Below, piece after piece: positions 20,866-57,500 of a stretch of DNA of 64,000 nt. Position 1 is the stretch's first letter; every line of letters starts with the position of its first letter. The stretch comes from Azolla caroliniana (taxonomy: Eukaryota > Plantae > Polypodiophyta). The stretch spans positions 12,152,001-12,216,000 of the forward strand of contig JBHGNT010000022.1 of assembly GCA_043228905.1 (NCBI GenBank), written 5' to 3'. Made by a program: the position numbers and the translations under genes. The notes under the pieces were generated by a model that saw only the letters and a list, made by a program, of their open reading frames with translations, was not told the DNA's origin and did no database searches.

Positions 20866-21007
20866 TCCATAAACAATATTTGGTTTTGAGTCATGTTTGT
20901 AGAATGTATATTTGTGTTCCTAGACCTATTTGCCCTTATTTATTCTCGTGTGAATTGAGGTCTCTTGCCGAAGAAGACATCAAAATCTCCACCGACGAGG
21001 AACGAAT

Positions 21008-21079
21008 CTCCTCGGATAGGACTTAAACCTACAACCAATTAGTTACCAACCGACCGCTCTACCATTGAGCTATCGAGGA
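21008..21079 (-). pseudogene. trnN: Degenerate organelle-type tRNA-Asn (trnN-GUU) insertion
   Basis: Reverse complement TCCTCGATAGCTCAATGGTAGAGCGGTCGGTTGGTAACTAATTGGTTGTAGGTTTAAGTCCTATCCGAGGAG resembles plastid trnN-GUU as I recall it; anticodon and T-loop are mutated. Confidence 0.65.
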
Positions 21080-22299
21080 AAAGTAGGAAATTTTGCTTCA
21101 CAAACAACAAAAGACCCTTTTTATTTCTAGATTATCATTTTTGTTACTTATATACTACTTTATAACTAGCATGGCATCTACAATGTTTAGTTTTGTGTCA
21201 TATCTATTGATGCATGTTTGTGATCTCAAAACTTAGTGAGGTTTTTTTTGGAAAAAAAAAAAAAAAACTTAGTGAGGTTGTAGTCAATATGTTGGGAATA
21301 GGCTCCACTATTTTAATGTGCATACAAAACTCATGGAGTCCAATTCACATCTACGCTATTGAGAGTAGATGAGTAGAAGGAAGTGCGTTGCATGTTTGAA
21401 ATTCAACTCCAAGGTACACATTTCTTGTTAGTAATTGAATCATGACTATAATGATCATGCGGCACGTGTGTGAAGCCACAATTAGTGACACAATGAAAAA
21501 TTCAATCTTGTACTAATTTGGCATTGCCTTTACAGTCTAGCGAGAAATGAAACTTCAAATGAAAAGTGGTAAAATATTAGAGATTACGTTTGACATTAAA
21601 CTTTCAAGATTGTCAATGTTTACCATAGGGTTTTAAAATGGTAAATTGTAATGGTGTAAGTGCTATAAAATGATGTGCATGAGTTCAAATCCTACAATTG
21701 TCAATTGTCTAATCATTGTAAGGAAAAGAATGTACCCTGTTTTTTTGGAACAATTATTAGATAGAAGAATATGACCATCCTAGTGTATAGAGACAATGTT
21801 TTGTTTTGTTTTATAGGTATACGTGTTTGTGTTTCCCAAATATGTAGTGAGGTCATGAGCATGCTAGGGATAGGCTATATTATTGTACTTTGCATACAAA
21901 GGTCATTGAGAAGAAACAACTTTTGACTTACGAAGGAGAATTGATTAAAAAGAATATCTCATCATAAATTTGTGTTTAAAGTAGTCAAGAAGAAACCACT
22001 TTTGGCTAATCAACGAGAGTTGATAAAAAAAAACTCATTATAAATTTTGTTTAAGGTATAAATTTGAATGGCGAGTTATCATCATGTCGTCTTGAAGTTC
22101 ATGTTTAAGGACAAGCCGGCTAGCCAATTTAGTTCGTGTCCCACTCGACTAGAACAAATTCAGGTGAGCCAGTTCGTTGCACCCTCCTACTGTTTATGGT
22201 CACCTCCAGGCAGAATCCCCAATCACACAAATGTAGAATGACATCCACATTCGGCTCATCAGAGATGAGTCTCACAATGTTTGACAGATTGAACTTCAA

Positions 22300-23624: not shown

Positions 23625-24560
23625 GATGAGGTGGTCGAGTTGGTCTAAGGCACCAAATTACGGTTCTACTCTGAAAGGGTATGGGTTCAAATCCCAATCT
23701 CATCATCGATGTAAAATAAACATGTAACATTTCAACAACAAGTTGATAGGGTCTAGATTAAAATTCTCGTTCGAAAGGGCGCACGTTCAAATCCCATACT
23801 CAATGTAAAATGAACATGTAACTTTTAGGCAACGAGTTGACATGGTCTAGATTAAAGTTCTCGTCCGAAAGGAACTAAGCTGCATTGGTCTAAGCCGCTA
23901 GATTAAGGGCATGAGCTCAAATCCAATGTCATCATCAATGTAAAATGAACATGTAACATTTAGGCTATGGGCTGATATTGTAAACGGAAAATAGATGAGG
24001 TGGCCAAGTTTTTCTAAGGCGATATATTAAGAGCATGGGTTCAAATCCCACCATCATCATCGATGTAAAATGAACATGTATTGTTTAGGAAACGAGTTGA
24101 TATAAAAAGGGAAGTGGATGAGGTGGCCGAGATGGATTAAGGGCATGTGTTCAAATCTCACCATCATCATCGATGTAAAATGAACATGTAACGTTTAGGA
24201 AACGAGTTGATATAAAAAACAGAAGTGGATAAGGTGGCCGAGTTGGTCTAAGGCGCTAGTTTAAGGTTCTAGTCCGAAAGGGCATGGTTTCAAATCCCAC
24301 TCTCATCATCGACCTAAAATGAATATGTAAATTTAGGCAATGAGTTGACTATGTAACACGATAAGTGGATGAGGTGGCCAAGTTTGTCTAAAGCGCTCGA
24401 TTAAGTTTCTAGTCCGAAAGGGCGTGGGTTCAAACCCCACTCTCATCATCGATGTAAAATGAACATGTAACTTTTAGGCTACGAGCTGATATCGTAAATG
24501 GACATGGATGAGGTGGCCGAGTTTGTCTAAGGCGCTAGATTAAGGTGCTAGTTCAGAAAG
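23625..24560 (+). pseudogene. Left, degenerate block of the tRNA-Leu(AAG) array (~8 units)
   Basis: Units at ~23625, 23750, 23845, 23994, 24117, 24228, 24368 and 24507, with internal deletions and the shared spacer tcgatgtaaaatgaacatgtaac. Confidence 0.85.
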
Positions 24561-33920: not shown

Positions 33921-33988
33921 GGATGAGGTGGCCGAGTTGGTCTAAGGCGCTAGATTAAGGGCATGGGTTCAAATCCTACTCTCGTCAT
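33921..33988 (+). pseudogene. Isolated tRNA-Leu array unit with 3' anticodon stem and variable arm deleted
   Basis: gatgaggtggccgagttggtctaaggcgctagattaag|ggcatgggttcaaatcctactctcgtca. Confidence 0.85.
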
Positions 33989-34024
33989 CGATGTAAAATG
34001 AGCTTGTAATGTTTAGGTGATGAG

Positions 34025-34848
34025 TGTTAAGAAAACGTGAAGAAGGCACTCGGGCTCTTCTTATGTGCGTGGCGGATCGTGGTGTGCTAGATCATTTAGT
34101 GCTCAAACACAGAAGGGAAGGGGGAAGGAGACTTACCTCTGTAGCAGCCAAAACTTCTTCTATTTCATTACACGCGGAGCTCTACTTGCTCTCGTCTGTT
34201 TCTCTCTTTTGCTCTCACTCTCTGAGTTCTTCCTCTCTTTCCTCACTCTCTCTCTCAGAGTTCTACTTCCTGTGTTTCTTACTTACCTACTCTCTTACTT
34301 TTTACCTAAGTAATAAGTTACTTACGTATGCAACTAATTAGCTGTCAGTCGCTAAATAGCTGTCAGTAGCTAATTAGCTGTCAGTCGCTAAATAACTGTC
34401 AGTAGCTAATTAGCTGTTTCTCCTTTATGTTCACAAGTAGCTAAATAGCTACTATAGCTTATTTCCCAATAAGCATCACATACCATGTTGAGCTTGCTTC
34501 TCAACACTCCCCCTCAAGCTCAACTTATCCTTTCTTGGGGTTATCTACAACTTCTTTTCCATGATGCTTTTCAGCCATCATATCAGTGTCTACAACTCCC
34601 ATCATGTTCCGAAACAGTGTAAGCTTTTCGACACTCAATCCCTTTGTGAGAATAACAGCAACCTGCTGATTTGTATTCACATACACCAGATCAACTTCTC
34701 CTTCAATCACTTTTTCTCTAACAAAGTGATAATGCACTTCAATGTGCTTTGTTCTTGCATGGAACACTGGGTTTTTTGCAAGCTGAATGGTGCTCATGTT
34801 GTCACACCAGATTGTGACAGTACCGTCTATATACTCTCCCAAATCAGC
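34025..34848 (-). mobile_element. Copia 3' fragment: RNase H end, PPT and 3' LTR
   Basis: CDN...NPVFHARTKHIEVHYHFVRE; PPT ctccccctcaag at 34507; LTR 34025-34506 TGTTAAGAA...TTCTCAACA with internal ctaattagctgtcagt repeats. Confidence 0.9.
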
Positions 34849-34902
34849 CTCATCATCGATGTAAAATGAATTGGCTGAGAACTGATATTCTAAAAAGAAG
34901 TG

Positions 34903-37900
34903 GATGAGGTGGTCGAGTTGGTCTAAGGCGCTAGATTAAGGTTCTAGTCCGAGAGGGCGTGGGTTCAAATCCCACCCTCATCATTGCTCGATGTAAAATG
35001 AGCATGTAACATTTTGGTGACGAGCAGATGTCCTAAACAAAAGTGGATGACGTGGCCGAGTTGGTCTAAGGTGCTAGATTAAGGTTCTAGAAGGAAAGGG
35101 CGTGGATTCAAATCCCACCCTCATCATCGATGCAAAATGAATTGGCCGAGAACTGATATTTATATAGAAGTGGATGAGGTGGCCGAGTTGGTCTAAGGCG
35201 CTAGATTAAGGTTCTAGTCCGAAAGGGCGTGGGTTCAAATCCCACCCTCATCATTGCTCGATGTAAAATGAGCAGCATGTAACGTTTTGGTAACAAGCAC
35301 ATATTCGAAAAAGAAGTGGATGAGGTGGCCGAGTTGGTCTAAGGCGCTAGATTAAGGTTCTAGTCCGAAAGGGCGTGGGTTCAAATCCCACCCTCATCAT
35401 TGCTCGATGTAAAATGAGCATGTAACATTTTGGTGACGAGAATATGTCCTAAACAAAAGTGGATGACATGGCCGAGTTGGTCGAAGGCGCTAGATTAATG
35501 TTATAGTAGGAAAGGGCGTGGATTCAAATCCCACCCTCATCATCGATGTAAAATGAATTGGCCGAGAATTGATATTCTAAATAGAAGTGGATGAGGTGGC
35601 CGAGTTGTTCTAAGGCGCTAGATTAAGGTTCTAGTCCGAAAGGGCGTAAGTTCAAATCCCACCCTCATCATTGCTCGATGTAAAATGAGCAGCATGTAAC
35701 GTTTTGGTGACGAGCACATATTCTAAAAAGAAGTGGATGAGGTGGTCGAGTTGGTCTAAGGCGCTAGATTAAGGTTCTAGTCCGAAAGGGCGTGGGTTCA
35801 AATCCCACCCTCTTCATTGCTCGATGTAAAATGAGCATGTAACGTTTAGGTGACGAGCAGATGTCCTAAACAAAAGTGGATGACATGGCCGAGTTGGTTT
35901 AAGGCGCTAGATTAAGGTTCTAGTAGGAAAGGGCGTGGGTTCAAATCCCACCCTCATCATCGATGTAAAATGGATTGGCCGAGAACTGATATTCTAAATA
36001 GAAGTGGATGAGGTGGCCGAGTTGGTCTAAGGCGCTAGATTAAGGTTCTAGTCCGAAAGGGCGTGGGTTCAAATCCCACCCTCATCATTGCTCGATGTAA
36101 AATTAGCAGCATGTAACGTTTTGGTGACGAGCACATATTCTAAAAAGAAGTGGATGAGGTGGCCGAGTTGGTCTAAGGCGCTAGATTAAGGTTCTAGTCC
36201 GAAAGGGCGTGGGTTCAAATCCCACCCTCATCATTGCTCGATGTAAAATGAGCAGCATGTAACGTTTTGGTGACGAGCACATATTCTAAAAAGAAGTGGA
36301 TGAGGTGGCCGAGTTGGTCTAAGGCGCTAGATTAAGGTTCTAGTCCGAAAGGGCGTGGGTTCAAATCCCACCATCATCATTGCTCGATGTAAAATGAGCA
36401 GGTAACATTTAGGTGACGAGCAGATGTCCTAAACAAAAGTGGATGACGTGGCCGAGTTGGTCTAAGGCGCTAGATTAAGGTTCTAGTAGGAAAGGGCGTG
36501 GGTTCAAATCCCACCCTCATCATCGATGTAAAATGGATTGGCCGAGAACTGATATTCTAAATAGAAGTGGATGAGGTGGCCGAGTTGGTCTAAGGCGCTA
36601 GATTAAGGTTCTAGTCCGAAAGGGCGTGGGTTCAAATCCCACCCTCATCATTGCTCGATGTAAAATGAGCAGCATGTAACGTTTTGGTGACGAGCAGATA
36701 TTCTAAATAGAAGTGGATGAGGTGGCCGAGTTGGTCTAAGGCACTAAATTAAGGTTCTAGTTCGAAAGGGCGTGGGTTCAAATCCCACCCTCTTCATTGC
36801 TCGATGTAAAATGAGCATGTAACGTTTAGGTGACGAGCAGATGTCCTAAACAAAAGTGGATGACGTGGCCGAGTTGGTCTAAGGTGCTAGATTAAGGTTC
36901 TAGTAGGAAAGGGCGTGGGTTCAAATCCCACCCTCATCATCGATGCAAAATGAATTGGCCGAGAACTGATAATCTAAATAGAGGATGAGGTGGCCGAGTT
37001 GGTCTAAGGCGCTAGATTAAGGTTCTAGTCCGAAAGGGCGTGGGTTCAAATCCCACCCTCATCATTGCTCGATATAAAATAAGCAGCATGTAACGTTTTG
37101 GTGACGAGCACATATTCTAATAAGAGGCACATATTCTAGTCCGAAAGGGCGTGGGTTCAAATCCCACCCTCATCATTGCTCGATATAAAATAAGCAGCAT
37201 GTAACGTTTAGGTGACGAGCACATATTCTGATAATCTAAATAGAGGTTGAGGTGGCCGAGTGGTCTAAGGCGCTAGATTAAGGTTCTAGTCCGAAAGGGC
37301 GTGGGTTCAAATCCCACCCTCATCATTGCTCGATGTAAAATGAGCGTGTAACGTTTAGGTGACGAGCAGATGTCCTAAACAAAAGTGGATGACGTGGCCG
37401 AGTTGGTCTAAGGCGCTAGATTAAGGTTCTAGTCCGAAAGGGCTTGGGTTCAAATCCCACCCTCATCATTGCTCGATGTAAAATGAGCAACATGTAACGT
37501 TTTGGTGACGAGCACATATTCTAAAAAGAAGTGGATGAGGTGGCCGAGTTGGTCTAAGGCGCTAGATTAAGGTTCTAGTCTGAAAGGGCGTTGGTTCAAA
37601 TCCCACCCTCTTCATTGCTCGATGTAAAATGAGCATGTAACGTTTAGGTGACGAGCAGATGTCCTAAACAAAAGTGGATGACATGGCCGAGTTGGTTTAA
37701 GGCGCTAGATTAAGATTCTAGTAGGAAAGGGCGGGATTTGAATCCCACCCTCATCATCGATGTAAAATGAATTGGCCGAGAACTAAGATTCTAAATAGAA
37801 GAGGATGAGGTGGCCGAGTTGGTCTAAGGCGCTAGATTAAGGTTCTAGTCCGAAAGGGCGTGGGTTCAAATCCCACCCTCATCATTGCTCGATGTAAAAT

Positions 37901-38444
37901 GAGCATGTAACGTTTAGGTGACGAGCAGATGTCCTAAACAAAAGTGGATGACATGGTTGAGTTGGTCTAAGGCGCTAGATTAAGGTTCTAGTCCGAAAGG
38001 GCGTGGGTTCAAATCCCACCCTCATCATTGCTCGATGTAAAATGAGCATGTAACGTTTAGGTGACGAGCAGATGTCCTAAACAAAAGTGGATGACATGGT
38101 TGAGTTGGTCTAAGGCGCTAGATTAAGGTTCTAGTCCGAAAGGGCGTGGGTTCAAATCCCACCCTCATCATCGATGTAAAATGAATTGGCCGAGAACTGA
38201 TAATCTAAGTAGAAGTGGATGAGGTGGCCGAGTTGGTCTAAGGTGCTAGATTAAGGTTCTAGTCCGAAAGGGCGTGGCTTCAAATCCCACCCTCATCATT
38301 GCTCGATGTAAAATTAGCAGCATGTAACGTTTTGGTGTCGAGTAAATATTCTAAAAAGAAGTGGATGAGGTGGCCGAGTTGGTCTAAGACGCTAGATTAA
38401 GGTTCTAGTCCGAAAGGGCGTGGGTTCAAATCCCACCCTCATCA
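34903..38444 (+). tRNA. Core tandem array of tRNA-Leu(AAG): 25 full-length units plus 1 half unit
   Basis: 81-nt consensus GATGAGGTGGCCGAGTTGGTCTAAGGCGCTAGATTAAGGTTCTAGTCCGAAAGGGCGTGGGTTCAAATCCCACCCTCATCA: acceptor GATGAGG/CCTCATC, anticodon stem CTAGA/TCTAG with loop TT-AAG-GT, variable arm CC-GAAA-GG, discriminator A. Consensus-identical copies start at 35173, 35319, 36007, 36153, 36570, 36984 and 37804. Confidence 0.95.
35173..35253 (+). tRNA. tRNA-Leu(AAG), representative intact copy
   Basis: Complete cloverleaf with A box TGGCCGAGTTGG and B box GGTTCAAATCC. Confidence 0.95.
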
Positions 38445-38501
38445 TTGCTCGATGTAAAATGAGCATGTAACGTTTAGGTGACGAGCAGATGTCCTAAACA
38501 G

Positions 38502-41500
38502 AAGATCTGGTGTCGGTATGGATGTCCGATAGAGTTAATAAGTGACCAAGGTGGGCACTTTTTAGGTCAAGTAGTGGAAAGTTTGACGACATTCTATGCG
38601 GTGGTGCACAAACGGAGCACTCCCTATTATACGCAAGCCAACGGATTAGCCGAGTCAACAAATAAAACACTACAGAACATCCTTCGAAAAATCGTCAATG
38701 AGAACCAGACGGATTGGGATACAAAGCTACACAGTGCACTCTGGGCCTATCGAACGGCATATAAGACAAGTATCCGCACAACACCGTTTCTCCTAGCATT
38801 CGGATTGGAATCAGTGATGTCGGTCGAGTTCCAGGTACTGAGTTTACGAATACAGATTCGGGAACGCCTAAATGAGAAGGAATCGGAAGCGATCCGGTTA
38901 GCCGCACTGTGCGAATTGGAAGAACACGGCTAGCCAGCATCATGCACCTAGAACTTGAGCAGCAGCGAAGGAAAGCGTTCGTGGACCGTCATCGAAAAGG
39001 GAACGAAAAGATGTTTGGAATCGGTAAGCCGGTACTAGTATTCTAGACCTGGATGGGTAAGATGTCGGGGAAGCTACGGTTTCGGTGGACCGAACCATAC
39101 TGGATTACGCGTGAGTTCAACGGTTCCTACCAGTTAGGGACACTTGCCAGCGAGGTTCTAGGTAAATGGGTCAATGAGTTCTGACTCAAACCATACAATG
39201 GACCCATGCCAAGAAACCCATTTGAACAAGTAAAGACCGACACAGAACCGGACACCAGTAAGTCGGAAGAGACGGCAACACATTTAGCAATCGGCAAGCG
39301 CGAAGTCGGTAAGAGGGAGCACGAGCCGGCAAACAACAAGAACGACGCGACGACAAGCAATCCAGCGGCCAACAAGTCCCACAATCTGGATAGGGTTCCA
39401 GTGGGACTAGATGCGAATTAACCAAACCATTTTTATTAAAAAATATATAATAAAAAATAAAAAATCAAATCAAATCAAAGTAAATCATGCAAAGGTGAGG
39501 GGTGAACGGACACATGCAAGAACAAGGAGTGAACATGCACTTTGAAAAGGTACGTAGTGGGCTATTAATAGGATATTAAACCGCCGCCACATGGCACGTC
39601 ATTCTATTTTAGTACACGACGTGCACACACGTGAGTAAGAAAAAAGGCGTCAACATGCAGCAAGAAAACTCCCACCGCGTGGAAGCCTTCACATTTCACG
39701 AACAAACGAGCACAGGCGATTGAAGATCATTAGACGTGAGCCCACGCACACAGAGCCTCCTCAAACACACCCCTCACCAGCGCTCACCGACCTCGATGAA
39801 GCCATGGACTGCCAAGCACTCTCTGAAGCGGCCAAGAAGTGGCCAAGGCAACACGGGTTAGAAGGTTTCCTCACAATCATGGAGGCTCCACCGCACCAGG
39901 AGGCGGAGAAGATAGTAAAGGAGATCGACACGGAACTTATCACGGAGGCCATCCATGCTTTGATTGGCCTTCCGGAGGGGGGCATCTTCACTATCGACAA
40001 CCCTACCCCATAGCAGCTTCGAAAATATTTTGGGGAATACTCTCTGGCCAGCAAGGCTTACCAGACACAGGGCGGCGAAGATCCCCTATTTCGAGAGATT
40101 GCCCATGTACTCCATGAATTTGGACATGTATACCCTCGACCCCCGTGCATGCCTTAGAACCAAGCCGGCTTAATCATAGCAACATATGAAGGCGTGAAGG
40201 TGGACTGGCCAGTACTAATTGCAGATGGCCTCTGTGTGGCCATCGACTCTGTAAGAGGCAAGGAGGGTTGGAAGATATGGACGGCACTGGCGCAATGGCT
40301 CACCCTATTGGCGCCACCTATCGAGCCCGTCAAGACCACAAAGTGGGGAAGAACAACCGAAGGCACCCCGAAAATGGCCTTGAAACGACAACAGTTGTTG
40401 GCCTCTAAGGCAACCAAACGGAAGGCGGCCGACACGGACCAGGCGGCAAAGGAGTGCGCCAATAGGAAGCGGTAGGTGGAAACGCAGGAGGAGCCACCGG
40501 CACGGCCAATCAAGATCAGACTTCACCAACCGGTTCAACAAGAGCCGGACCCCTTGGCAGCAAAAATCAACATCGGGACTCAGGAGAAGGAAGTGGAGGA
40601 GGAACCGTTAGAGCACCTCCAGCAGCGCCAGAAGGCAAGCACCTCCGAACAGGCCGGGGAGCGTTCGGACCCAAAGAAGGATGGAACGCCTCTACCCCGC
40701 ACTGAGCATCCCGCACCAAGGGTGGAATCGGAACCAGTTCGGACAGAACCGGTCACAGAGCTCCCTGCACAACAAGCTATACCGGCAGGTCAAGTTACGG
40801 CAAGACCCGAAATGCAAGCGCCGGAAGTACAGTGGCCTACCCCACCGGCAAGTCAAGAGCAATCAGAGGCAGAGCGGCCAACGGAGCCACAACCAGAACC
40901 AAAACGGCAAAGTGGTCACCAACCAGAGACAAAGTTGCATCTCAACGCAACCGGACAAAGCCGACCACTAGCCAGCGACACCAAAAGCCAACCCTCCGAG
41001 CAGACGCAACAACAGGACACCGGCAACCAATGGCTCCGGTGGATTGGAGAATAAATTGCCGGAGTAGTGCAGTACATAGAGGCGGAAGAGAAAGCGCAGA
41101 TGGACCGGTTGCTCGTCACAACCGGAGAACTAGAGACGGCCCGGTCAAGGATCCGGAGCCTAAAACAAGACTTGGACCTGGCCACAGAAGAATTGGCCAA
41201 AATGGCCTTAACCGGACCACCGATCCAAGCACCGGTGACTCCGGTAGATGTACAGAATAAAGACACACCGACACCTGTACATAACAATAAGACCCCGGAG
41301 ACGGAACCAATCCCGGAGATAGTGGCGGCGCAAGCAAAAGAGCTTGTTGAATTGAAAGATGAACTGGCCGCACAAGAAGCATTACGCACCCGAGAAAGGG
41401 ACTTGAAGAAAGCGGCAGAAGAAGAACAAAGGAAGACTGTTGAGAACCTCCGCCGGGCAGAAGACAATTTGCGGAAAGGACATCAAGCATATGACCGGCT

Positions 41501-43151
41501 TAAGGAGGAGAAAGAGAAAGCGCTGCAAGAAATGGAGAAGCTGTTACGGATGGCGGAAACGGAGATTGAAAGACTTAAAGAAGAACTCTGTCAATAGAAG
41601 GATCGGGAAGACTGCGCTCGCCGGCAACTCAACCAGAAGTTGAAGCAAAAGACCGATGATTTTGAGCACCTGCACCGGGACTACAAGCACTTGGATACGG
41701 AGCATAAGAAATAGCAAGAGAAGATGGCAGAGCTCCGGTAGGAGGTGCATCGAGCGGAGATGGCGCTAGCGGAGGAACAGGTTGAAAGAACCACGCTACT
41801 GGAGGAAGCCGCGCAAGAACGTATAGAGCTCCATAACCAGCATTATGAAGAGAAGGAAAGAGCGACAATGGTATTGCGGAGGTTGCAAAACACCTACCAA
41901 CACCAATTGTCACATTACCGGGAGCGGGAGGCGGACACGTTGGCGCTGATCAAGCAATTGAAGGAAGAACAGCAAGCCACGGAGGACAAATCGAAGATGG
42001 GATTGGAGCGGATCCAGTTCATTGTCCAAGCATGGAGGAACAAGACAAAACGCTTGATTGACGAAAGCTCCGTGCAATGGTGGGACAAATGGGCAAAACA
42101 AACAGCCGAGCTCCAGTTGCTAAGGGCGGACGCGAAAAACCGGCAGAAGGATGACGACGACGGTTACATGCTAACAAAGGAGGACTTCACCGCCGTAAGA
42201 GATGAGTTAGCCGAAGATTTTGTAACTCTAGCGAAGGAACAATCAGCAGTGGTCCGGCAACTGGTAGCACAGCTGGACGATGATCGATTGGATGCTCAAA
42301 TCCAGTTTGAAAGCTATGAGCGGACCAGGCTACGGAAAGAAGACGCAAAGCATGCGGCGACCGTCAACCTCAGCGATGAGGAGCCATCGCCGGAGCAAGG
42401 ACTGGATGGAGACAAGGCCAGGTCGAGTCAACCGGAGTCAAATCCAACAGAGCAGCTAACGGAGGAATCATCGCCACAACCGCCAGTACCGAGAGCCGAA
42501 CAGACGCCATCTAAGGAGCAACAATCGGAGGAGCTGGAGCCACAACAACAACAGCAACATCAGCAACATCAGCCGCAACAACAACAACAACAGAGTTCCG
42601 AAGAACCATTGGATACCCTGGAGCAGAGTATTCTGGATATCTTGGACGAAGGCTAAGGGCCGGATAGTGGGATTCGACATACAAGGTACTGTCCCACAAG
42701 CGTGCAATGTGTTACCCGGCCGGCAAAGGAGTTAAAGATCAGAATGTGAAAGGGATTGTTATTCGGAATCTATTTTACTTAAGTAGAATAGTGGGACATG
42801 AACGGACGGACCGGAATCGGTATGCCGATCCGGATCCGGACCGGTTCTGAACGGGTGCCGGTTGGCACCGTTTTGTACTCAGCACCGGTGACCTATATAA
42901 AGGCCCAGTTACAATGTAAAACTTTGATGGATAATTAATAGAGCTTCTTGTTTTATCCTTAAGTGTTGATTACCGTTTTGTACTAATTGTTCTATCATAC
43001 GTGTGTATCGAATTTAATGCCATATTGCTAAGTAGCCAATTAAGTCTGATTAATCGTTGTGTCTTAAGTTATCTCGCCGTAACACCCCTTTGGTGAAGTG
43101 TCTTCCGTAGACACCCTGTGTTAGGCCATTGTCCGGCCCTAAGGATTAACA
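38502..43151 (+). mobile_element. Ty3/Gypsy 3' half: integrase, extra ORF and 3' LTR
   Basis: RYGCPIELISDQGGHF, QANGLAESTN, ALWAYRT integrase; extra ORF 39804-42656; LTR ~42757-43151 (TGTTA...TTAACA) after gaaagggat; an alternative LTR start at 42710 is possible. Confidence 0.88.
39804..42656 (+). pseudogene. Gypsy accessory ORF (~950 codons; P/Q/E-rich linker, long coiled coil) with in-frame stops
   Basis: ORF-track pieces 39720, 40194, 40476, 41067 and 41745 share one frame, separated only by TAG/TAA codons. Confidence 0.8.
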
Positions 43152-45007
43152 AAGGGCGTGGATTCAAATCCCACCCTCATCATCGATGTAAAATGAATTG
43201 GCCGAGAATTGATACTCTAAATAAAAGTGGATGAGGTGGTCGAGTTGGTCTAAGGCGCTAGATTAAGGTTCTAGTCCGAAAGGGCGTGGGTTCAAATCCC
43301 ACCCTCATCATTGCTCGATGTAAAATGAGCATGTAACGTTTTGGTGACGAGCAGATGTCATAAATAGAAGTGGAGAGACGTGGCCGAGTTGGTCTAAGGC
43401 GCTAGATTAAGGTTCTAGTCCGAAAGGGCGTGGGTTCAAATCCCACCCTCATCATTGCTCGATGTAAAATGTGCATGTAACGTTTTGGTGACGAGCAGAT
43501 GTCCTAAACAGAAGTGGATGAGGTGGCCGAGTTGGTCTAAGGCGCTAGATTAAGGTTCTAGTCCGAAAGGGCGTGGGTTCAAATCCCACCCTCATCATTG
43601 CTCGATGTAAAATGAGCATGTAACGTTTAGGTGACGAGCAGATGTCCTAAACAAAAGTGGATGACATGGTTGAGTTGGTCTAAGGCGCTAGATTAAGGTT
43701 CTAGTCCGAAAGGGCGTGGGTTCAAATCCCACCCTCATCATCGATGTAAAATGAATTGGCTGAGAACTGATAATCTAAGTAGAAGTGGATGACATGGTTG
43801 AGTTGGTCTAAGGCGCTAGATTAAGGTTCTAGTCCGAAAGGGCGTGGGTTCAAATCCCACCCTCATCATCGATGTAAAATGAATTGGCCGAGAACTGATA
43901 ATCTAAGTAGAAGTGGATGAGGTGGCCGAGTTGGTCTAAGGCGCTAGATTAAGGTTCTAGTCCGAAAGGGCGTGGGTTCAAATCCCACCCTCATCATCGA
44001 TGTAAAATGAACGTGTAATGTAAAACAGAAGAGGATGAGGTGGCCGAGTTGGTCTAAGGCGCTAGATTAACTTTCTAGTGCGAAAGGGCGTTGGTTCAAA
44101 TCCCATCCTCATCATGGATGTAAAATGAATGTATAACGTTTTTGCAACAACTGATGACCTAAGTGGAAGTGGATGAGGTTGATGAGTTGGTCTAAGGCAA
44201 TAGATTAAGGTTCTAGTCTGAAAGGGCGTGGGGTCAAATCCCACTCCTATCATCGATGTAAAAGTAACATGTAATGTTTTGGCAACGAGTTGATGTCCTA
44301 AGCAAAAGTGAATGAGGTGATCGAGTTGGTCTAAGGCGCTAGATTAACTTTCTAGTGCGAAAGGGCGTTGGTTCAAATCCCATCCTCATCATGGATGTAA
44401 AATGAATGTATAACGTTTTTGCAACAACTGATGACCTAAGTGGAAGTGGATGAGGTTGATGAGTTGGTCTAAGGCAATAGATTAAGGTTCTAGTCTGAAA
44501 GGGCGTGGGGTCAAATCCCACTCCTATCATCGATGTAAAAGTAACATGTAATGTTTTGGCAACGAGTTGATGTCCTAAGCAAAAGTGAATGAGGTGATCG
44601 AGTTGGTCTAAGGCCGGTAGATTAAGGTTCTCGTCCGAAAGGGCGTGGGTTGAAATCCCACTCCTATCATTGATGTATGATATCCTAAATGGAAGTGGAT
44701 GAGGTGGCCGAGATGCTCTAAGGAGGTAGATTAAGGTTCTCATCCGAAAGGGCGTGGGTTCAAATCCCACTCTCATCATAGATGTAAAAATAATATGTAA
44801 CGTTTTGGCAATGAGACAAGTCCCTCCGGATGGGACGTGTTCGACAGTCGGATCCGGAAAGTATTCGAAAACTTGATCGAGCCATAGTGGATTAGAGGCA
44901 CAGATATTTTTAAATGTATGGAAGTGGATGAGGTGGCCGAGTTTGTCAAAGGCGCAAGATTAAGGTTCTAGTCCGAAAGGGCGTGGGTTCAAATACCACT
45001 CTCATGA
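43152..45007 (+). tRNA. Right block of the tRNA-Leu(AAG) array (13 units plus a 3' half), degenerating rightwards
   Basis: Units start at 43230, 43373, 43517, 43660, 43788, 43916, 44034, 44172, 44311, 44449, 44588, 44698 and 44927; 43517 and 43916 are consensus-identical. Confidence 0.92.
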
Positions 45008-47659: not shown

Positions 47660-47677
47660 TATCCTCTTAATCTACCA

Positions 47678-48210
47678 AATGCCACTACGGAATGTCAGGG
47701 TTGAAACCATGACCTTTGGGTCCCCATTGGGCAAGGAAAACATTAGTATCTTTGCTTCTTGCTTTTTGGGTGCTTGAAAAGAGCGGGGAAAGCAGAAAAG
47801 CGAGCTTTTTCTTTCATCAATCTTGGAAAACTGCACCTCCTCTTAATATACTTAGATGCCATTGCGGGATGTGGGGGGGTTGAACCCATGACCTTCGAGT
47901 CTCCATTGGGCAAGGAAAGCATTAGTCTCTTTGCGTTTTGCTTTTTGGGTGCTTGAAAAGAGCGGGGGGGAAAGCAGAGAAGCAAGCTTTTTCTTTTCGT
48001 CAATCATTGGAAAAGTGTTACCTCCTCTTTTAATCTACTTAGATGCCACTGCGGGAAGTAGGATTTGAGCCCATGACCTTCGAGTCTCCGGTTGGGCAAG
48101 GAAAAGCATCGGTCTCTTTGCGTTTTGCTTTTTGCTTTTTGGGAGCCTGGAAAAAGCAGGGAAAGCAAGCTTTTTGCTTTTCTTCAATCTTGGAAAAGTG
48201 TACCTCCTCT
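47678..48210. repeat. Three ~180-bp tandem repeats with a tRNA-like B box on the - strand
   Basis: atgcca(c/t)t.cgg.a...tga..ccatgacctt..gtc.cc..ttgggcaaggaaa at ~47679, ~47856 and ~48043. Confidence 0.85.
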
Positions 48211-48217
48211 TCTGCTG

Positions 48218-48367: not shown

Positions 48368-49986
48368 ATGGGCAGTGTTCCTACGCCAGAAGAAGAAGAA
48401 GACGAAACAGCATCAGCAGGAAAATCCCATCCCCCCCTTCCTTCCTCCTCCTCCTCCTCCTCTTCTTCTTCTTCTTCTTCTGCTGCTGCTGCTGCTGCTG
48501 CTCCACAGCGATGGCAGAACGATTCACAGAACAGCTCTCGCTTCCATAATGACTTCCGCATTCCTCACCATCCCCCTCGTTCTCCCCACCACTACGAGTG
48601 GCGAGTAAGGGAAACAGTCATCAATGGAACAACATGGTATCCTCAACCCCCTCGATCTGGCCCTAACCCTAGGTATGCAAAACAAAACAATACAAACACA
48701 CAAAAAAAAAGGACCTCTGTATTGCTTTCTTTTCTCTGTTTTTTCTGTCTTTGTTTGTTAAATATGGCCTTTCATGGTGTCTAGTCTTAAGACCACTTCT
48801 TAGCAGACATTACAGGCATCCTCATGATGGTTCCTATCAGCAACATCCACATAGAACCATGCATTATCATGATAAGAATCATGATGATGATGATGTTGTT
48901 GAGGATGATGATCATGATTTGGCACATGATGGGTCTTACTTCATGCATCATCATGGACGGCAACATCAATATGATGGGGTCTATGGTCATATGCATCCTT
49001 ATCAACATCAGCAGCATGATGGGACTTATGCCATGATGCCCTACCATGATGGAGGTATGTATGGTAGTAGTCATGCTGTTACTTATGATGATGGATCGGC
49101 ACATGCCCCACCATGGTACTATTCTTATGATCATAATGCTTCGATGTTGAGGAGGCCGTACAATAATGCCGTGATGCCACATGGCGGTTACAATGTGGGG
49201 CCACGCGGCTATGGTGACTCGAGGTCACATGGTAGTTATGATGATGGCAGGTCTTCTTATATTCGCATTAGCCCACGTGGTGGCGAGAATGCAAGGTCAA
49301 GATCAAGGTCCTCGCATGGTGGGCAATATGTTGAGCACGAGAATCCTTACCATAGCTATAATGAGATGAATGGGTGCCCGATGGGGGGCCCACCTTTGTA
49401 TGGAATGCCGAGCACCGGGAACACGAGCCGGCACGTGGTCACGTGGTGCGGACACACGATGCCTGTCACCATCACCAGCCAGGCGGCTGCGGTGATCGAA
49501 TGGGTTCACCGCCAGACGGGTGGCCTCTTCGGCTTCGACCTCGAATGGAAACCAAATTTCTCTCCCGGCCAAGACAACAAAGCTGCCCTTCTACAGCTTT
49601 GTGGACCCGAAGACTGCTTGATCGTCCAGCTGCTCTACGCAGACATGATACCCCGTGCCTTGGTGGATTTCCTATTGGACGCGGGCAAGTCTCTTGGAGG
49701 CGTCGGGATCAGGCAAGATGTGAGTAAACTGGAGCGTGATCACGGGCTCGCGTGTCAGGGCCAAGTCGAGCTCGGGGCACTGGCTTCGGAGAAGCTCGAA
49801 AGGCAAGACCTACATGGAGGTGGGCTGAAGAAACTGGTAGACCAAGTGCTGGGGAAGACACTGGTGAAGGTGAAGAAGATTACCATGAGCAACTGGGAGA
49901 AAGAGTATCTTGATCAGAAGCAAATCGAGTATGCTTGTATCGATGCCTGGGCAGCCTTGGCACTCTTGCAAAAATTGATGGGTTAG
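48368..49986 (+). CDS. Werner-syndrome-like (WEX/RNase D family) DEDDy 3'-5' exonuclease with long low-complexity N-terminus; 2 exons
   Basis: Exon 48368-48672 (ag|gtatg) joins exon 48807-49986 (or 48816) in phase 2; motifs GFDLEW (ExoI), ALLQLC, IRQDVSKL (ExoII), SNW...YACIDAW (ExoIII). Confidence 0.88.
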
Positions 49987-54145: not shown

Positions 54146-54570
54146 AAGAGAGAGAGAGAGAAGAGAGAGAGAGAAGAGAAGAGAAGAGAAGAGAAGAGAG
54201 AGAGACTTGATATGAAGAAGAAGGAAGAAGAAGAAGAAGAAGAATTAGAAGAAGAAAGAAAGAAGAAGAAGAAGGAGAAGGAGAAGGAGAAGAAAGACAG
54301 TGTTGATTGAGTAAGGTTCGAATTTCCCGCTACCCGCGAAACCCTATCTCTCTCTCTCTCTCTCTGTTTTAGGTTTCCTGCAAAAACCCTAATCACAGTA
54401 TCCTGCTACAGTGGCAAGCGCTCTGTTTCTCTGTTTTTTCTATATTTTTTTCCTTTTGTTTCCTCCCATTTTGTTTCTCTCATTCTCTCTCTCTCTCTCT
54501 GTTTTGGGTTTCCTGCAAAACCCCTAATCTCAGTATCCTGCTAGAGTGGGAAATTCTCTGTTTTTCCTTT
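54090..54570 (+). promoter_or_regulatory. TOP1 promoter/5' UTR: (GA)n tract, telo-boxes and a duplicated ~90-bp block
   Basis: (AG)n 54090-54205; AAACCCTA at ~54339 and ~54385; ctctgtttt.ggtttcctgcaaaa.ccctaatc.cagtatcctgcta.agtgg occurs twice. Confidence 0.55.
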
Positions 54571-54588
54571 TTGTTGCTGCCTTTGGCT

Positions 54589-57500
54589 ATGCCTGACGAC
54601 TCAGACGATGACTTGCTGCTGGATTTCCACCTCAAGCGAAGCAGGGCCGCAATGGCATCCTCTGGGAGAAGAGGGAAGGAAGGTTTGCTGAAGAAGGATT
54701 CATCACACCGAGCTTCTTCTCGGGTAATGCCGAAGAATCGCAAAGGAAATGAAGATGGAGCTGAAGATAATGATGATGACGAAGAAGAAGTAGATGATGA
54801 TGATGCTGATGATAAGCCTCTGTCAGTTTCTTTTCTATCAAAGAGATCCAGTAAAAAAGCAGCAGAGAGATTATCAGGTAAGTGCCTTGTTAAGTCCAAC
54901 AATCAAGACTCTACTACTACTGTAACAACAGTTGAGCAAAGGAGAGTCACATTGAAAGTATACAATAAAGAGGTAAATTCAGGTAATTGTCAAAAAAATG
55001 GCTCAACAAATAGTGCAAGATATGGTGTTGTTGATGATGATATGCCTCTGATACACATGCCAAAAAATACCAAAAAGAAAAACCAATCTTGTCACGTATC
55101 AGGTGGCTCCAGAAGTGGTATAGTTGTTGTTGATGATGATGATGATATGCCTCTCATGCATATGTCAAATAATATAAAAAAGAGGAAACAATCTTCTGAG
55201 GTTTCTTCTACGAAACACATCAAAGTGCATGTCAATTCGCTGAATATGAGCACAGAGGAGAAGAGACAAGCAAGAATAGCTGTGTTCTCAAAAGAAGAAC
55301 ATGAGGAAGAAGAGGAACCCAAAATACATGTAGAACCATCAAGGTCCTCTATAGAGAGGAATGCAGTGCCAATAAGAGAAGCCAATTCAGAAGATGAGCA
55401 GCACGAAGAGGAAGAGAAAGAGTCTAAAGTTCATGCCAACTCATCAAATGCGGATATAGAGTCTAATGGAGTATCATTAGTTGCAGCTGATTCAGAAGTT
55501 GATGAAGAGGAAGAAACTGAAAAGAAAGACTCTAAAATGTGTGTTAACTCATCAAATGAAGCTATAGAGAGACAGAGAGTAGCAATAGTAGTTGCTGACT
55601 CAGAGAACAAACAAGAAGAGAACGAAGTGAAAGAGAAGGAGGACAAGGATGCAATGGCTGATTTGCAAGAAATTGAGAAAGGAAAAATTGAGGTTGCAAC
55701 ATCAGAGGAGGAGGAAGAGGATGGGGAGGAGGAATCACACGAGGAGGAAGAGATAGAGTTAGGGAAGGAGCAGGAAGAGGTAGAGTTAGGGAAGGAGCAG
55801 GAAGAAGAAGACATCGACAAAAAACTCGGAGGAAAGTTAAAAAGAGAGCTTGCTGCAATCAGCAATGCTAACAACAATGAATCGGATGAGGATGAATATA
55901 ACATACCACTCAGACAAGGGCATGTCAATGGTAAGAAGAAGAATCGTGGAAACATTTTAATTGTCGATGATCACAGATCCATGGAGACCGCTAGTTTACA
56001 GAACCTTAAGGTTTCCTTTGCACAATCAATCAAATTGGTTGACGAGGAAGAAGAAGATGACAACGATGATATTCCTTTGGCAAAGATGTTATGCATTAAG
56101 TCCAAAAAGAGTGTTTCTACCAAACAGAAGGTATCAGTGGCTGTGAATGTTGTCAAGGAAGAGAATGTTGTAGATGATAATGACGATTATGACATTCCTT
56201 TGAGCCGACAGTTTGCCTTTAAGAGGAAGAAACATACCGGTGATGGTGCTATTCAAAAGCTCAAACAAGCAGGCATAAAGAAGGAGAAGCATGATGATGA
56301 TGATGATGATGATGATATTCCTTTGGGTAAAATGCTATGCTTAAACAAAGGTAAGGCTGCAGTTTCAAAAGCTAGTGCGACTTTTTTTGTTCCTCCAAAG
56401 TCAGAGACAAAAACAGTTACAGATAATATCGATGAGGATGACAGTGAGGATTATAATCAGCCCATAGTCAAGAAGACCTTTTTGAAGAAGAAAACATCTA
56501 CTACAAAAAGGCTTGTTTCTGAGAGAATGGTGCCTGATTCTAAGAAAAAGAAGCTAAAAACTCCATCAAAAAGGAGAGATTCAGATTCAGATGAAGAAGA
56601 TTCTGGCAATGATAACGATTTACTTCTGGTACAAACAATTTCTTCAGAGAAGAAAAATTATGTGGACAGGAAAGCAAAGTTTAATGCTGAAAAAAGGAAA
56701 CCAAAGACTCCATTGAAGGATGAGGATTCCGATGATGAGGATGATGAATGGGAGGAAGATGAAGGAGACGATGATGAAGATGAGGATTATGATGCATCAG
56801 TTGTAAAGAAGAGTCACATAGTGTCCAAGTCCAAGACCAATACTAAGAAAGATGCTAAATTGCGCTTGAAGAAAAAGGCAAAGAAGATGAAAGATATTAT
56901 GGAATCAGGTGGAGGACAGAAGTGGACTACTCTTGAGCATAATGGTGTCATATTCCCTCCTCCTTATCAACCACATGGTGTCAAGATGCTATACAATGGG
57001 AAACCTGTGGATCTTACTTCAGAACAAGAGGAGGTGGTAGTTAAATTGTGTTATAGGATTTAATTTTTGTTTGTTTTGGTGTTTCTTTAATGTTCCTCTC
57101 TTGTTTACATGCTTAACTTTGTAAGTATCTTCTGTTGATTTAATGTTTTAGTGTTTTGGATGTAGGTTGCAACAATGTTTGCAGTAATGCACGATACTGA
57201 TTATGCAGCAAAGGCTAAATTTGTGGAGAACTTTTGGAACGATTGGAAAAACATATTGGGTGAGGATCATGTGATTCAAGGGTTGGAAGGCTGTGATTTC
57301 ACTCCCATATATAATTGGCATATTGGTGAAAAAGAAAAAAAGAAACAAATGACTACTGAGGTATACTCACTTTTACTCATTAATGTTGGTTGATGCCTAA
57401 AAATATATTTATACAGAACCTTTCACGCTCTGTTGGGAATATAATAGGAGAAGAAAGCAGCCAAAGAAGAGAAGATGAAACAGGAAGAAAACTATATGTG

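What the first reader, a model, noticed from the sequence alone, without database searches (positions are those of the whole stretch)
35173..36983. Higher-order repeat: A-A'-B trimer of 417 bp
Unit lengths cycle 146, 143, 128 bp, each with its own diagnostic spacer (gagcagcatg...gcacatattc; gagcatg...gatgtcctaaacaaaag; gaattggccgagaactgatattc). Starts 35173, 35590 and 36007 are 417 apart; 36007-36570 is 417+146 (extra A); 36570-36984 is 414. This resembles centromeric HOR organisation but is built from tRNA genes, implying amplification by unequal exchange at the trimer level.
Basis: seen in the sequence. Interest (0 to 1): 0.75.

Follow-up and report, generated by a model that had tools for sequence, protein, structure and literature searches.

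The report
Three-gene repeat in leucine tRNA array
This is a real but small and imperfect three-gene repeat inside a tandem array of leucine tRNA genes, probably of a fern; it likely arose by ordinary unequal recombination, as in the known Arabidopsis tRNA triplet array, and shows no sign of being centromeric.

Summary
tRNA-Leu(AAG) units of 146, 143 and 128 bp cycle A-A'-B, and monomers group by class, not by neighbour. There are five complete trimers, 94-98% identical, in a 3.7-kb core. The array is cut by Copia and Gypsy remnants and has older decayed ends.

The period of three is not special. Sister arrays in this probable fern genome hold block duplications of 2 to 17 units. Variants are not inherited as whole trimers, and phase slips map inside the shared tRNA body. 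B is a likely pseudogene slot with broken stems and no terminator. Since amplification, gene and spacer have mutated equally.

The closest known case is the Arabidopsis Ser-Tyr-Tyr triplet array (PMC2886086). The scan noted a similar tRNA-Thr array in another genome.

The better side result: the arrays carry their own tRNA-Leu version. It differs from eight dispersed genes by three compensatory base pairs and occurs with other spacers in three other organisms. A few near-perfect copies persist among hundreds of decayed ones.

The parts
34848..38504 (+). Young core of the tRNA-Leu(AAG) tandem array: a partial B unit followed by 26 units of classes A (146 bp), A' (143 bp) and B (128 bp)
34903..35172 (+). 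A'-B pair before the first full trimer (no A between it and the partial B at 34848-34902)
35173..35589 (+). Trimer 1 (A, A', B), 417 bp
35590..36006 (+). Trimer 2, 417 bp
36007..36152 (+). Extra A unit (one-unit phase slip)
36153..36569 (+). Trimer 3, 417 bp
36570..36983 (+). Trimer 4, 414 bp (3 bases short at the end of the B spacer)
36984..37387 (+). Disturbed stretch: A unit with a 111-bp internal duplication and half gene, then an A' unit; no B spacer follows
37388..37803 (+). Trimer 5, 416 bp; its first gene is a hybrid (B-type base at gene position 6, intact variable arm, A spacer)
37804..38217 (+). A', hybrid A' (B-type 5' end), and a B variant with intact variable arm
38218..38504 (+). 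A and A' units; the array is cut in the A' spacer
38505..43150 (+). Ty3/Gypsy-type remnant interrupting the array: begins inside an integrase-like frame, ends with an LTR-like end abutting gene position 50; its 5' part and the first 49 bases of the next gene are missing
   Evidence: the integrase motif was recognised by eye (recalled), Pfam gave no hit at E<=0.001
43151..44033 (+). Continuation of the young core (partial B, three A'-type units, two B variants, one short unit); shares the B variant of 38090
44034..45007 (+). Older diverged end of the array (71-76 of 81 bases match), with its own recent 277-bp dimer duplication
34025..34847 (-). Ty1/Copia-type remnant (RNase H-like frame and one LTR, bounds approximate) that cuts the array on the left
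   Evidence: motif recognised by eye (recalled), no Pfam hit at E<=0.001
33922..34024 (+). Decayed array unit (gene with internal deletion) left of the Copia remnant
23625..24560 (+). Oldest decayed copies of the same gene family, 139-140-bp units and fragments

Best explanation
This is a short higher-order repeat of three tRNA-Leu(AAG) gene units, and it likely arose as a neutral by-product of unequal recombination in an old tandem tRNA gene array. Shown: three monomer classes in cyclic order, five complete trimers, a young uniform core with older diverged ends, a B slot with broken stems and no T4 terminator, hybrid genes at phase slips, and mosaic variants. Inferred steps: (1) a roughly 139-bp unit (gene plus spacer with a T4 run) was tandemly repeated; (2) three neighbours diverged in their spacers (A' gained 4 bases, A a further 3, B lost the terminator stretch and gathered damaging changes in the gene); (3) a misaligned exchange duplicated the three as a block; (4) pairing in register of three is then favoured, because it aligns spacers as well as genes (about 96% over 417 bp), so the phase perpetuated itself for a few rounds; (5) the near-identical gene bodies still allow out-of-register exchange and conversion, which gave the extra A, the lost B, the hybrids and the patchwork of variants; (6) LTR elements inserted and deletions trimmed both junctions. 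Most copies now drift. Selection likely keeps only a few working genes per array, best placed in the A slot, the only slot that always has a terminator.
For: Class clustering and order tests. Trimer identity 94.2-97.6% over 10 pairs. The end of an A' spacer is followed by the B-type base at gene position 6 in 10 of 11 cases and other spacers by the normal base in 18 of 20 (one of the two exceptions is an A' end that the motif missed), so slips lie downstream, inside the gene; hybrids at 37388 and 37947. A' position 78 and B position 95 show all four allele combinations over trimers 1-4 (read). Within-class changes: 34 per 2025 gene sites against 26 per 1436 spacer sites, p=0.79 (25 monomers). 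B: 0 of 9 with all stems intact and 0 of 9 with T4 in the own spacer; A: T4 in 7 of 7, stems intact in 4 of 7; A': T4 in 2 of 9, stems intact in 4 of 9. Block duplications at lags 2, 4, 7, 11, 12, 13, 15, 17 and others in sister Leu arrays, and in 5 of 8 arrays of other isotypes. The same model is published for Arabidopsis (PMC2886086).
Against: In Arabidopsis the elements of a triplet share one history and crossovers fall between triplets (PMC2886086); here they do not, so clean trimer-level crossing-over alone does not fit and conversion must be added. The Mantel test rests on 8 blocks and few variants, some at mutable C/G sites (C>T plus G>A are 25 of 60 changes). A and A' have identical gene consensus but 6 of 62 spacer differences (p=0.006), so the gene was constrained or homogenised while the classes diverged. 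Sequence cannot tell crossing-over from replication slippage or template switching. The ancestral 139-bp unit is inferred from the flanks and the C6 array, not from a rooted tree.
Confidence: 0.7

Rival explanations
1. Blocks are amplified by replication slippage or template switching provoked by RNA polymerase III complexes on intact genes, so blocks that hold a working gene are copied more often.
For: Array consensus genes are intact and differ at 1 of 81 sites while spacers differ at 10-31 of 47-61 sites. The three youngest local blocks in the C22 3.14-Mb cluster each hold a near-perfect gene, although such genes are 11 of 261 there. tRNA genes are fork-pause and instability sites in yeast (PMC5413955 and 10.1101/2020.01.29.925644, search listing and start of abstract only).
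Against: Young duplications without an intact gene exist: window 44034-44588, 43660/43788, C22:3266513/3266783, C22:11478749/11480680. The three blocks are neighbours and not independent. Whole-unit similarity favours units with conserved genes. Selection on a few copies explains intact founders as well.
Confidence: 0.15
2. The trimer is a selected transcription unit: A' and B lack terminators, so polymerase III would read A'-B-A as one precursor ending at the T4 run of A, or the extra copies supply tRNA dosage.
For: T4 lies at +32 in 7 of 7 A units; for most A' and all B units the first T4 lies 157-716 bases on. 9 of 42 full copies in the window are identical and intact.
Against: Gene and spacer mutate at equal rates since amplification; 9 perfect of 19 against 6.3 expected by chance; the phase breaks in 7 of 25 steps; B is structurally broken; upstream DNA is 63% AT against 78% for dispersed genes. 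Arabidopsis clusters are reported silent and methylated (PMC7544208, abstract).
Confidence: 0.08
3. The trimer is a centromere-type higher-order satellite built from tRNA genes.
For: Formal likeness: ordered diverged monomers, near-identical multimers, a uniform core with diverged ends.
Against: Five complete copies in 3.7 kb against multi-megabase arrays in human (PMC3975068, passages). One locus only. It lies about 0.6 Mb from the end of a 12.8-Mb contig, with protein-coding frames within 20 kb. Plant tRNA genes are reported depleted from centromeres (PMC13437025, passages).
Confidence: 0.04
4. The periodic pattern is an assembly artefact.
For: No independent contig spans the array; copy number and order beyond about 110 bases are unverified.
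Against: Trimers differ by 10-24 substitutions. Contigs from runs of three studies match the variant-rich stretch at about 35444-35548 with no difference, and one matches 37741-37832; one of these runs may be the source of the assembly.
Confidence: 0.03

Closest known systems
Arabidopsis chromosome 1 tRNA-Ser/Tyr/Tyr array, 27 triplet units (PMC2886086: abstract, Results part 1 of 2 and section 22 read; PMC13437025: sections 10-11 read; PMC7544208: abstract and section 13 read)
   Same: Head-to-tail tRNA genes repeated as triplets; copies of one isotype cluster by slot (TyrA/TyrB); one locus; pseudogenes among the copies; diverged ends; unequal crossing-over and drift proposed.
   Different: Here all three slots are one isoacceptor; spacers are only 47-65 bp; one slot is a fixed likely pseudogene; only 5 complete trimers; elements of a trimer do not share one history; exchange points lie inside the genes.
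[quoted passage not shown]
   Same: Multi-gene tRNA units repeated in tandem in a seed-free plant.
   Different: The figure examples mix isotypes (Ala-Leu; Val-Glu-Phe) with identical copies; here slots differ by spacer and by decay.
Alpha-satellite higher-order repeats (PMC3975068, passages)
   Same: Diverged monomers in fixed order, repeated as a more similar multimer, with variant units that skip a monomer.
   Different: Scale (kb against Mb), monomers are genes, monomer classes differ by only 7-16%, no evidence of centromere function.
Very large tRNA gene counts reported for the fern Azolla filiculoides (more than 7500 genes, PMC13578239; more than 10,000 tRNA-like sequences, 10.1101/2021.12.21.473619; passages)
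   Same: A fern genome rich in tRNA genes and pseudogenes; here about 58,700 rough first-look candidates.
   Different: Those papers put it down to genome duplication and repeat content; the passages read describe no tandem arrays. The genus of this genome was not established.

Membership tests
Higher-order tandem repeat (structural class) | Monomers fall into classes more alike within than between | tested here: met
   0.043 against 0.121, p=1e-4; 24 of 24 nearest neighbours in class
Higher-order tandem repeat (structural class) | Classes recur in fixed order | tested here: met
   11 of 12 steps in the finding (p=4e-4); 18 of 25 over the core
Higher-order tandem repeat (structural class) | Multimer copies more alike than neighbouring monomers | tested here: met
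   Trimers 94.2-97.6%; lag-3 distance 0.057 against 0.114 at lag 1
Centromeric HOR satellite | Large homogenised array | tested here: not met
   5 complete trimers; B spacer 10 of 10 hits inside this window
Centromeric HOR satellite | CENH3 chromatin | not testable with these tools
   No chromatin data
Plant tRNA gene homocluster (PMC13437025: at least 5 genes within 5 kb, one isotype) | At least 5 same-isotype genes within 5 kb | tested here: met
   ARAGORN genes in 34903-38444, 23 Leu(AAG) and 1 anticodon mutant
Plant tRNA gene homocluster | Silent and methylated, as in Arabidopsis | not testable with these tools
   Only indirect: C>T and G>A are the two commonest changes in all four regions
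Arabidopsis-type triplet tRNA array | Copies cluster by slot within the unit | tested here: met
Arabidopsis-type triplet tRNA array | Elements of a unit share one history (unit kept whole during expansion) | tested here: not met
   Mantel r=-0.19, p=0.91, 8 blocks, low power; hybrids and slips. It works like this array but is not a homologue or an exact match
Functional tRNA-Leu(AAG) gene | Intact cloverleaf and anticodon | tested here: met
   Met for 9 identical copies of 42 (Rfam 60.3 bits); not met for B, 0 of 9
Functional tRNA-Leu(AAG) gene | Structure kept by compensatory change | tested here: met
   6 of 6 differences from the dispersed gene form 3 stem pairs; simple after-the-fact chance 5.5e-6
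Functional tRNA-Leu(AAG) gene | Transcribed, processed and charged | not testable with these tools
   No tRNA sequencing data available
Dead tRNA-derived satellite | Gene part evolves as freely as the spacer at all time scales | tested here: not met
   Equal rates within the young core, but array consensus genes differ at 1 of 81 sites while spacers differ at 10-31 of 47-61; excess of near-perfect copies

The most novel reading that the evidence does not exclude
This fern lineage keeps an array-specific tRNA-Leu(AAG) isodecoder, separate from its dispersed genes, that lives only in self-renewing tandem arrays. A few expressed copies per array are held by selection, seed new block amplifications through polymerase III-linked replication stress, and leave hundreds of decaying copies behind. 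The same process in other isotypes would explain the extreme tRNA gene counts reported for a fern, and the arrays would record a compensatory walk through G-U intermediates.
Probability: 0.2. Interest if true: 0.65.

Novelty: new member of a known kind. Interest (0 to 1): 0.33.

Why it matters
The trimer itself is a small new example of a published kind and mainly shows that higher-order structure arises readily in any tandem array, without centromere function. The wider picture is more useful. This genome holds arrays of several tRNA isotypes in which most copies decay and a few stay intact. If that holds for the ferns with record tRNA gene counts, those counts reflect array turnover and not translational demand, a link that PMC13578239 says is unproven. 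The array-type tRNA differs from the dispersed one at six bases, so its expression can be tested directly by tRNA sequencing.

Tried and rejected
Co-inheritance of variants at trimer level: tested, not found. A possible 13-unit (about 1.8 kb) duplication on top of the trimer is hinted by shared variants (35046/36859, 35736/37534, 35879/37677) but other variants conflict; left open. Small RNA in the spacers: Rfam at gathering score finds only tRNA, 37 of 37 matches; no E-value scan was run. Expression: no RNA holder listed; the one run guessed as RNA that was laid is probably DNA; no evidence either way. Telomere at the contig end: 1 repeat motif in the last 10 kb, so chromosome position stays unknown. 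Enrichment of intact genes in young duplications: mixed, and the single-linkage family that joined scattered 141-bp units is an artefact of short units, so it was not used. Dating by LTR pairs: not possible, each flanking element keeps one LTR in the window. Organism C gave only 6 contigs and was not used. Summed contig depths were not used as copy numbers. Literature: searches listed no paper on tandem tRNA arrays or tRNA higher-order repeats in ferns; the library lacks most subscription papers. The supplement of PMC12652284 could not be read and may list related Leu arrays.

Full report
Observation. The window holds 52 BLAST matches to the tRNA-Leu(AAG) gene at 35173, in four groups. The core at 34903-38444 has 26 units. 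A is not resolved as one clade, but the three labels need only the minimum of two changes. With gaps ignored, distance is 0.043 within and 0.121 between classes. The order follows A>A'>B in 11 of 12 steps within the finding (p=4e-4) and 18 of 25 over the core. Five trimers are complete (35173, 35590, 36153, 36570, 37388) and are 94.2-97.6% identical.

Setting. A 3'-5' exonuclease frame at 48673 has its best named relatives in ferns (Adiantum, Ceratopteris), so the host is probably a fern; the genus was not established. The window lies at 12.15-12.22 Mb of a 12.78-Mb contig in a 523-Mb assembly. The core is cut on the left by a Copia-type remnant and on the right by a Gypsy-type remnant (motifs recognised by eye). 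It resumes at 43151 with the same B variant as at 38090. The ends of the array are older: 70-76 of 81 bases match for most outer copies (one has 58), against 71-81 in the core, mostly 77 or more. The B spacer occurs nowhere else (10 of 10 hits).

What the slots are. A has a T4 run at +32 in 7 of 7 units and intact stems in 4 of 7. A' has the same gene consensus, T4 in 2 of 9 and intact stems in 4 of 9. B has a broken acceptor pair in 9 of 9, a broken variable arm in 6 of 9 and no T4 in its spacer. B is therefore a likely pseudogene carried along with the block. Since amplification, gene and spacer have changed at the same rate (34 of 2025 against 26 of 1436 sites, p=0.79), but A and A' differ at 0 of 81 gene sites and 6 of 62 spacer sites (p=0.006). 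Nine of 19 A-type genes are perfect, against 6.3 expected, so present selection in the core is not shown.

How it changes. The B-type base at gene position 6 follows an A' spacer end in 10 of 11 cases, even where the rest of the unit is A or A' (37388, 37947). Phase slips therefore occur inside the gene body, the long sequence shared by all slots. Variants in A' and the next B are not co-inherited (Mantel r=-0.19, p=0.91, 8 blocks, low power), and two sites show all four allele combinations. The trimers are patchworks. This fits unequal exchange in several registers plus conversion, not clean trimer copying alone. The mechanism is inferred; sequence cannot separate crossing-over from slippage or template switching.

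Is three special? No. I fetched three sister regions and found 282, 86 and 17 full-length copies of the same gene with unit lengths near 141, 167 and 124-139 bp. They hold block duplications at lags 2, 4, 7, 11, 12, 13, 15 and 17, among others, including 4-mers only about 2% apart. Of 16 further stretches (14 picked from the best tRNA hits), 8 hold arrays of Lys(UUU), Ile(UAU), Arg(UCU) or Thr(UGU), and 5 of those 8 show block runs. The trimer is one block that reached a few more copies.

The array-type tRNA. Eight dispersed genes on four contigs are identical to each other and have unique, AT-rich flanks. The core's gene differs from them at six sites that form three stem pairs (standard positions 3:70, 7:66, 28:42). 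A simple after-the-fact chance is 5.5e-6. Two of the pairs sit in CG and CHG contexts, where methyl-C deamination raises the rate, but other such sites are unchanged and the third pair runs the other way. The older arrays have G-U at 7:66, between the A-U of dispersed genes and the G-C of the core. In them, stems and loops decay alike, yet near-perfect genes are in excess: 11 of 261 against 0.5 expected, and 13 of 83 against 1.3, with spacers as diverged as the rest. Six of the 11 come from one amplified cluster, two pairs of the 13 from one segmental copy, and the counts are over-dispersed, so the excess is smaller than it looks. Runs labelled as organisms D, E and F gave 485, 291 and 345 contigs on the gene, with tandem joints and no cover of this spacer. 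One contig of F matches 36144-36229 exactly, so G-C at 7:66 is not unique to this core. In D, 61% of the depth has G at position 42 with no listed change at 28, which hints at a second G-U intermediate; a missing row is no proof. Together this points to long-term selection on the gene in a minority of copies, or to conversion from them. Expression is untested.

Assembly. No independent contig spans the array. Contigs from three studies match about 35444-35548 exactly and one matches 37741-37832; one run may be the assembly's source. With 10-24 substitutions between trimers, an artefact is unlikely.

Known cases. Kane, Freeling and Lyons (PMC2886086; abstract, Results part 1 and section 22 read) describe 27 tRNA triplets in Arabidopsis, clustering by slot, unequal crossing-over, drift, and pseudogenes at the ends. 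PMC13437025 (sections 10-11) repeats the slot clustering. PMC12652284 (passages) reports 2- and 3-gene units repeated up to 37 times in a bryophyte. This array differs in having one isoacceptor in all slots, very short spacers, a fixed pseudogene slot and exchange inside the genes. It meets the structural definition of a higher-order repeat and fails the size test of a centromeric one; CENH3 could not be tested. My searches listed no description of such arrays in ferns. An earlier scan note (e1-10328714) gave the lead to PMC2886086 and reads a tRNA-Thr array in another genome the same way.

Verdict. Real, correctly described, and a new member of a known kind. Interest 0.33, most of it from the array-specific tRNA and the genome-wide turnover of tRNA arrays.

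Noticed in passing
window 42662-42705: Just before the LTR of the Gypsy remnant lies a copy of the 3' part of this genome's tRNA-Arg(UCU), split by a short insert, where a polypurine tract is expected. It fits the earlier scan notes on Gypsy elements with a tRNA site in place of the PPT.
   Followed up: partly
L011-L029 (G000:C22:3128469-3286139): About 350 matches (282 full length) to the same tRNA-Leu gene in 141-bp units, broken into sub-arrays; several sub-arrays keep one or a few near-perfect genes, and the 3138971-3141920 cluster has young 4-mer and 2-mer blocks.
   Followed up: yes
L031-L036 (G000:C22:11405587-11484034): Array of the same gene with a 167-bp unit on the minus strand; 13 units are duplicated about 8.2 kb apart. 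Its spacer resembles loose ends in the run of organism D.
   Followed up: partly
L051-L056, L059, L064: Tandem arrays of tRNA-Lys(UUU), Ile(UAU), Arg(UCU) and Thr(UGU), several with dimer or larger blocks; about 58,700 rough tRNA candidates in the genome.
   Followed up: partly
window 35462, 44034, 44311: Anticodon mutants in decayed copies: AAU at 35462 and AAC at 44034 and its duplicate; annotation tools call them Ile and Val although the body is leucine-type.
   Followed up: partly
window 21007-21080 (-): A single tRNA-Thr(GGU) gene in AT-rich DNA; this anticodon is typical of plastids (recalled), so it may be an organellar insertion.
   Followed up: no
window 47667-48211: Three copies of a 179-bp repeat whose consensus has a tRNA-like stretch on the minus strand by eye; not called by ARAGORN or Rfam.
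   Followed up: no
window 48673-49986 and 54373-57063: Host genes close to the array: a 3'-5' exonuclease (PF01612) and a DNA topoisomerase I exon (PF02919).
   Followed up: partly
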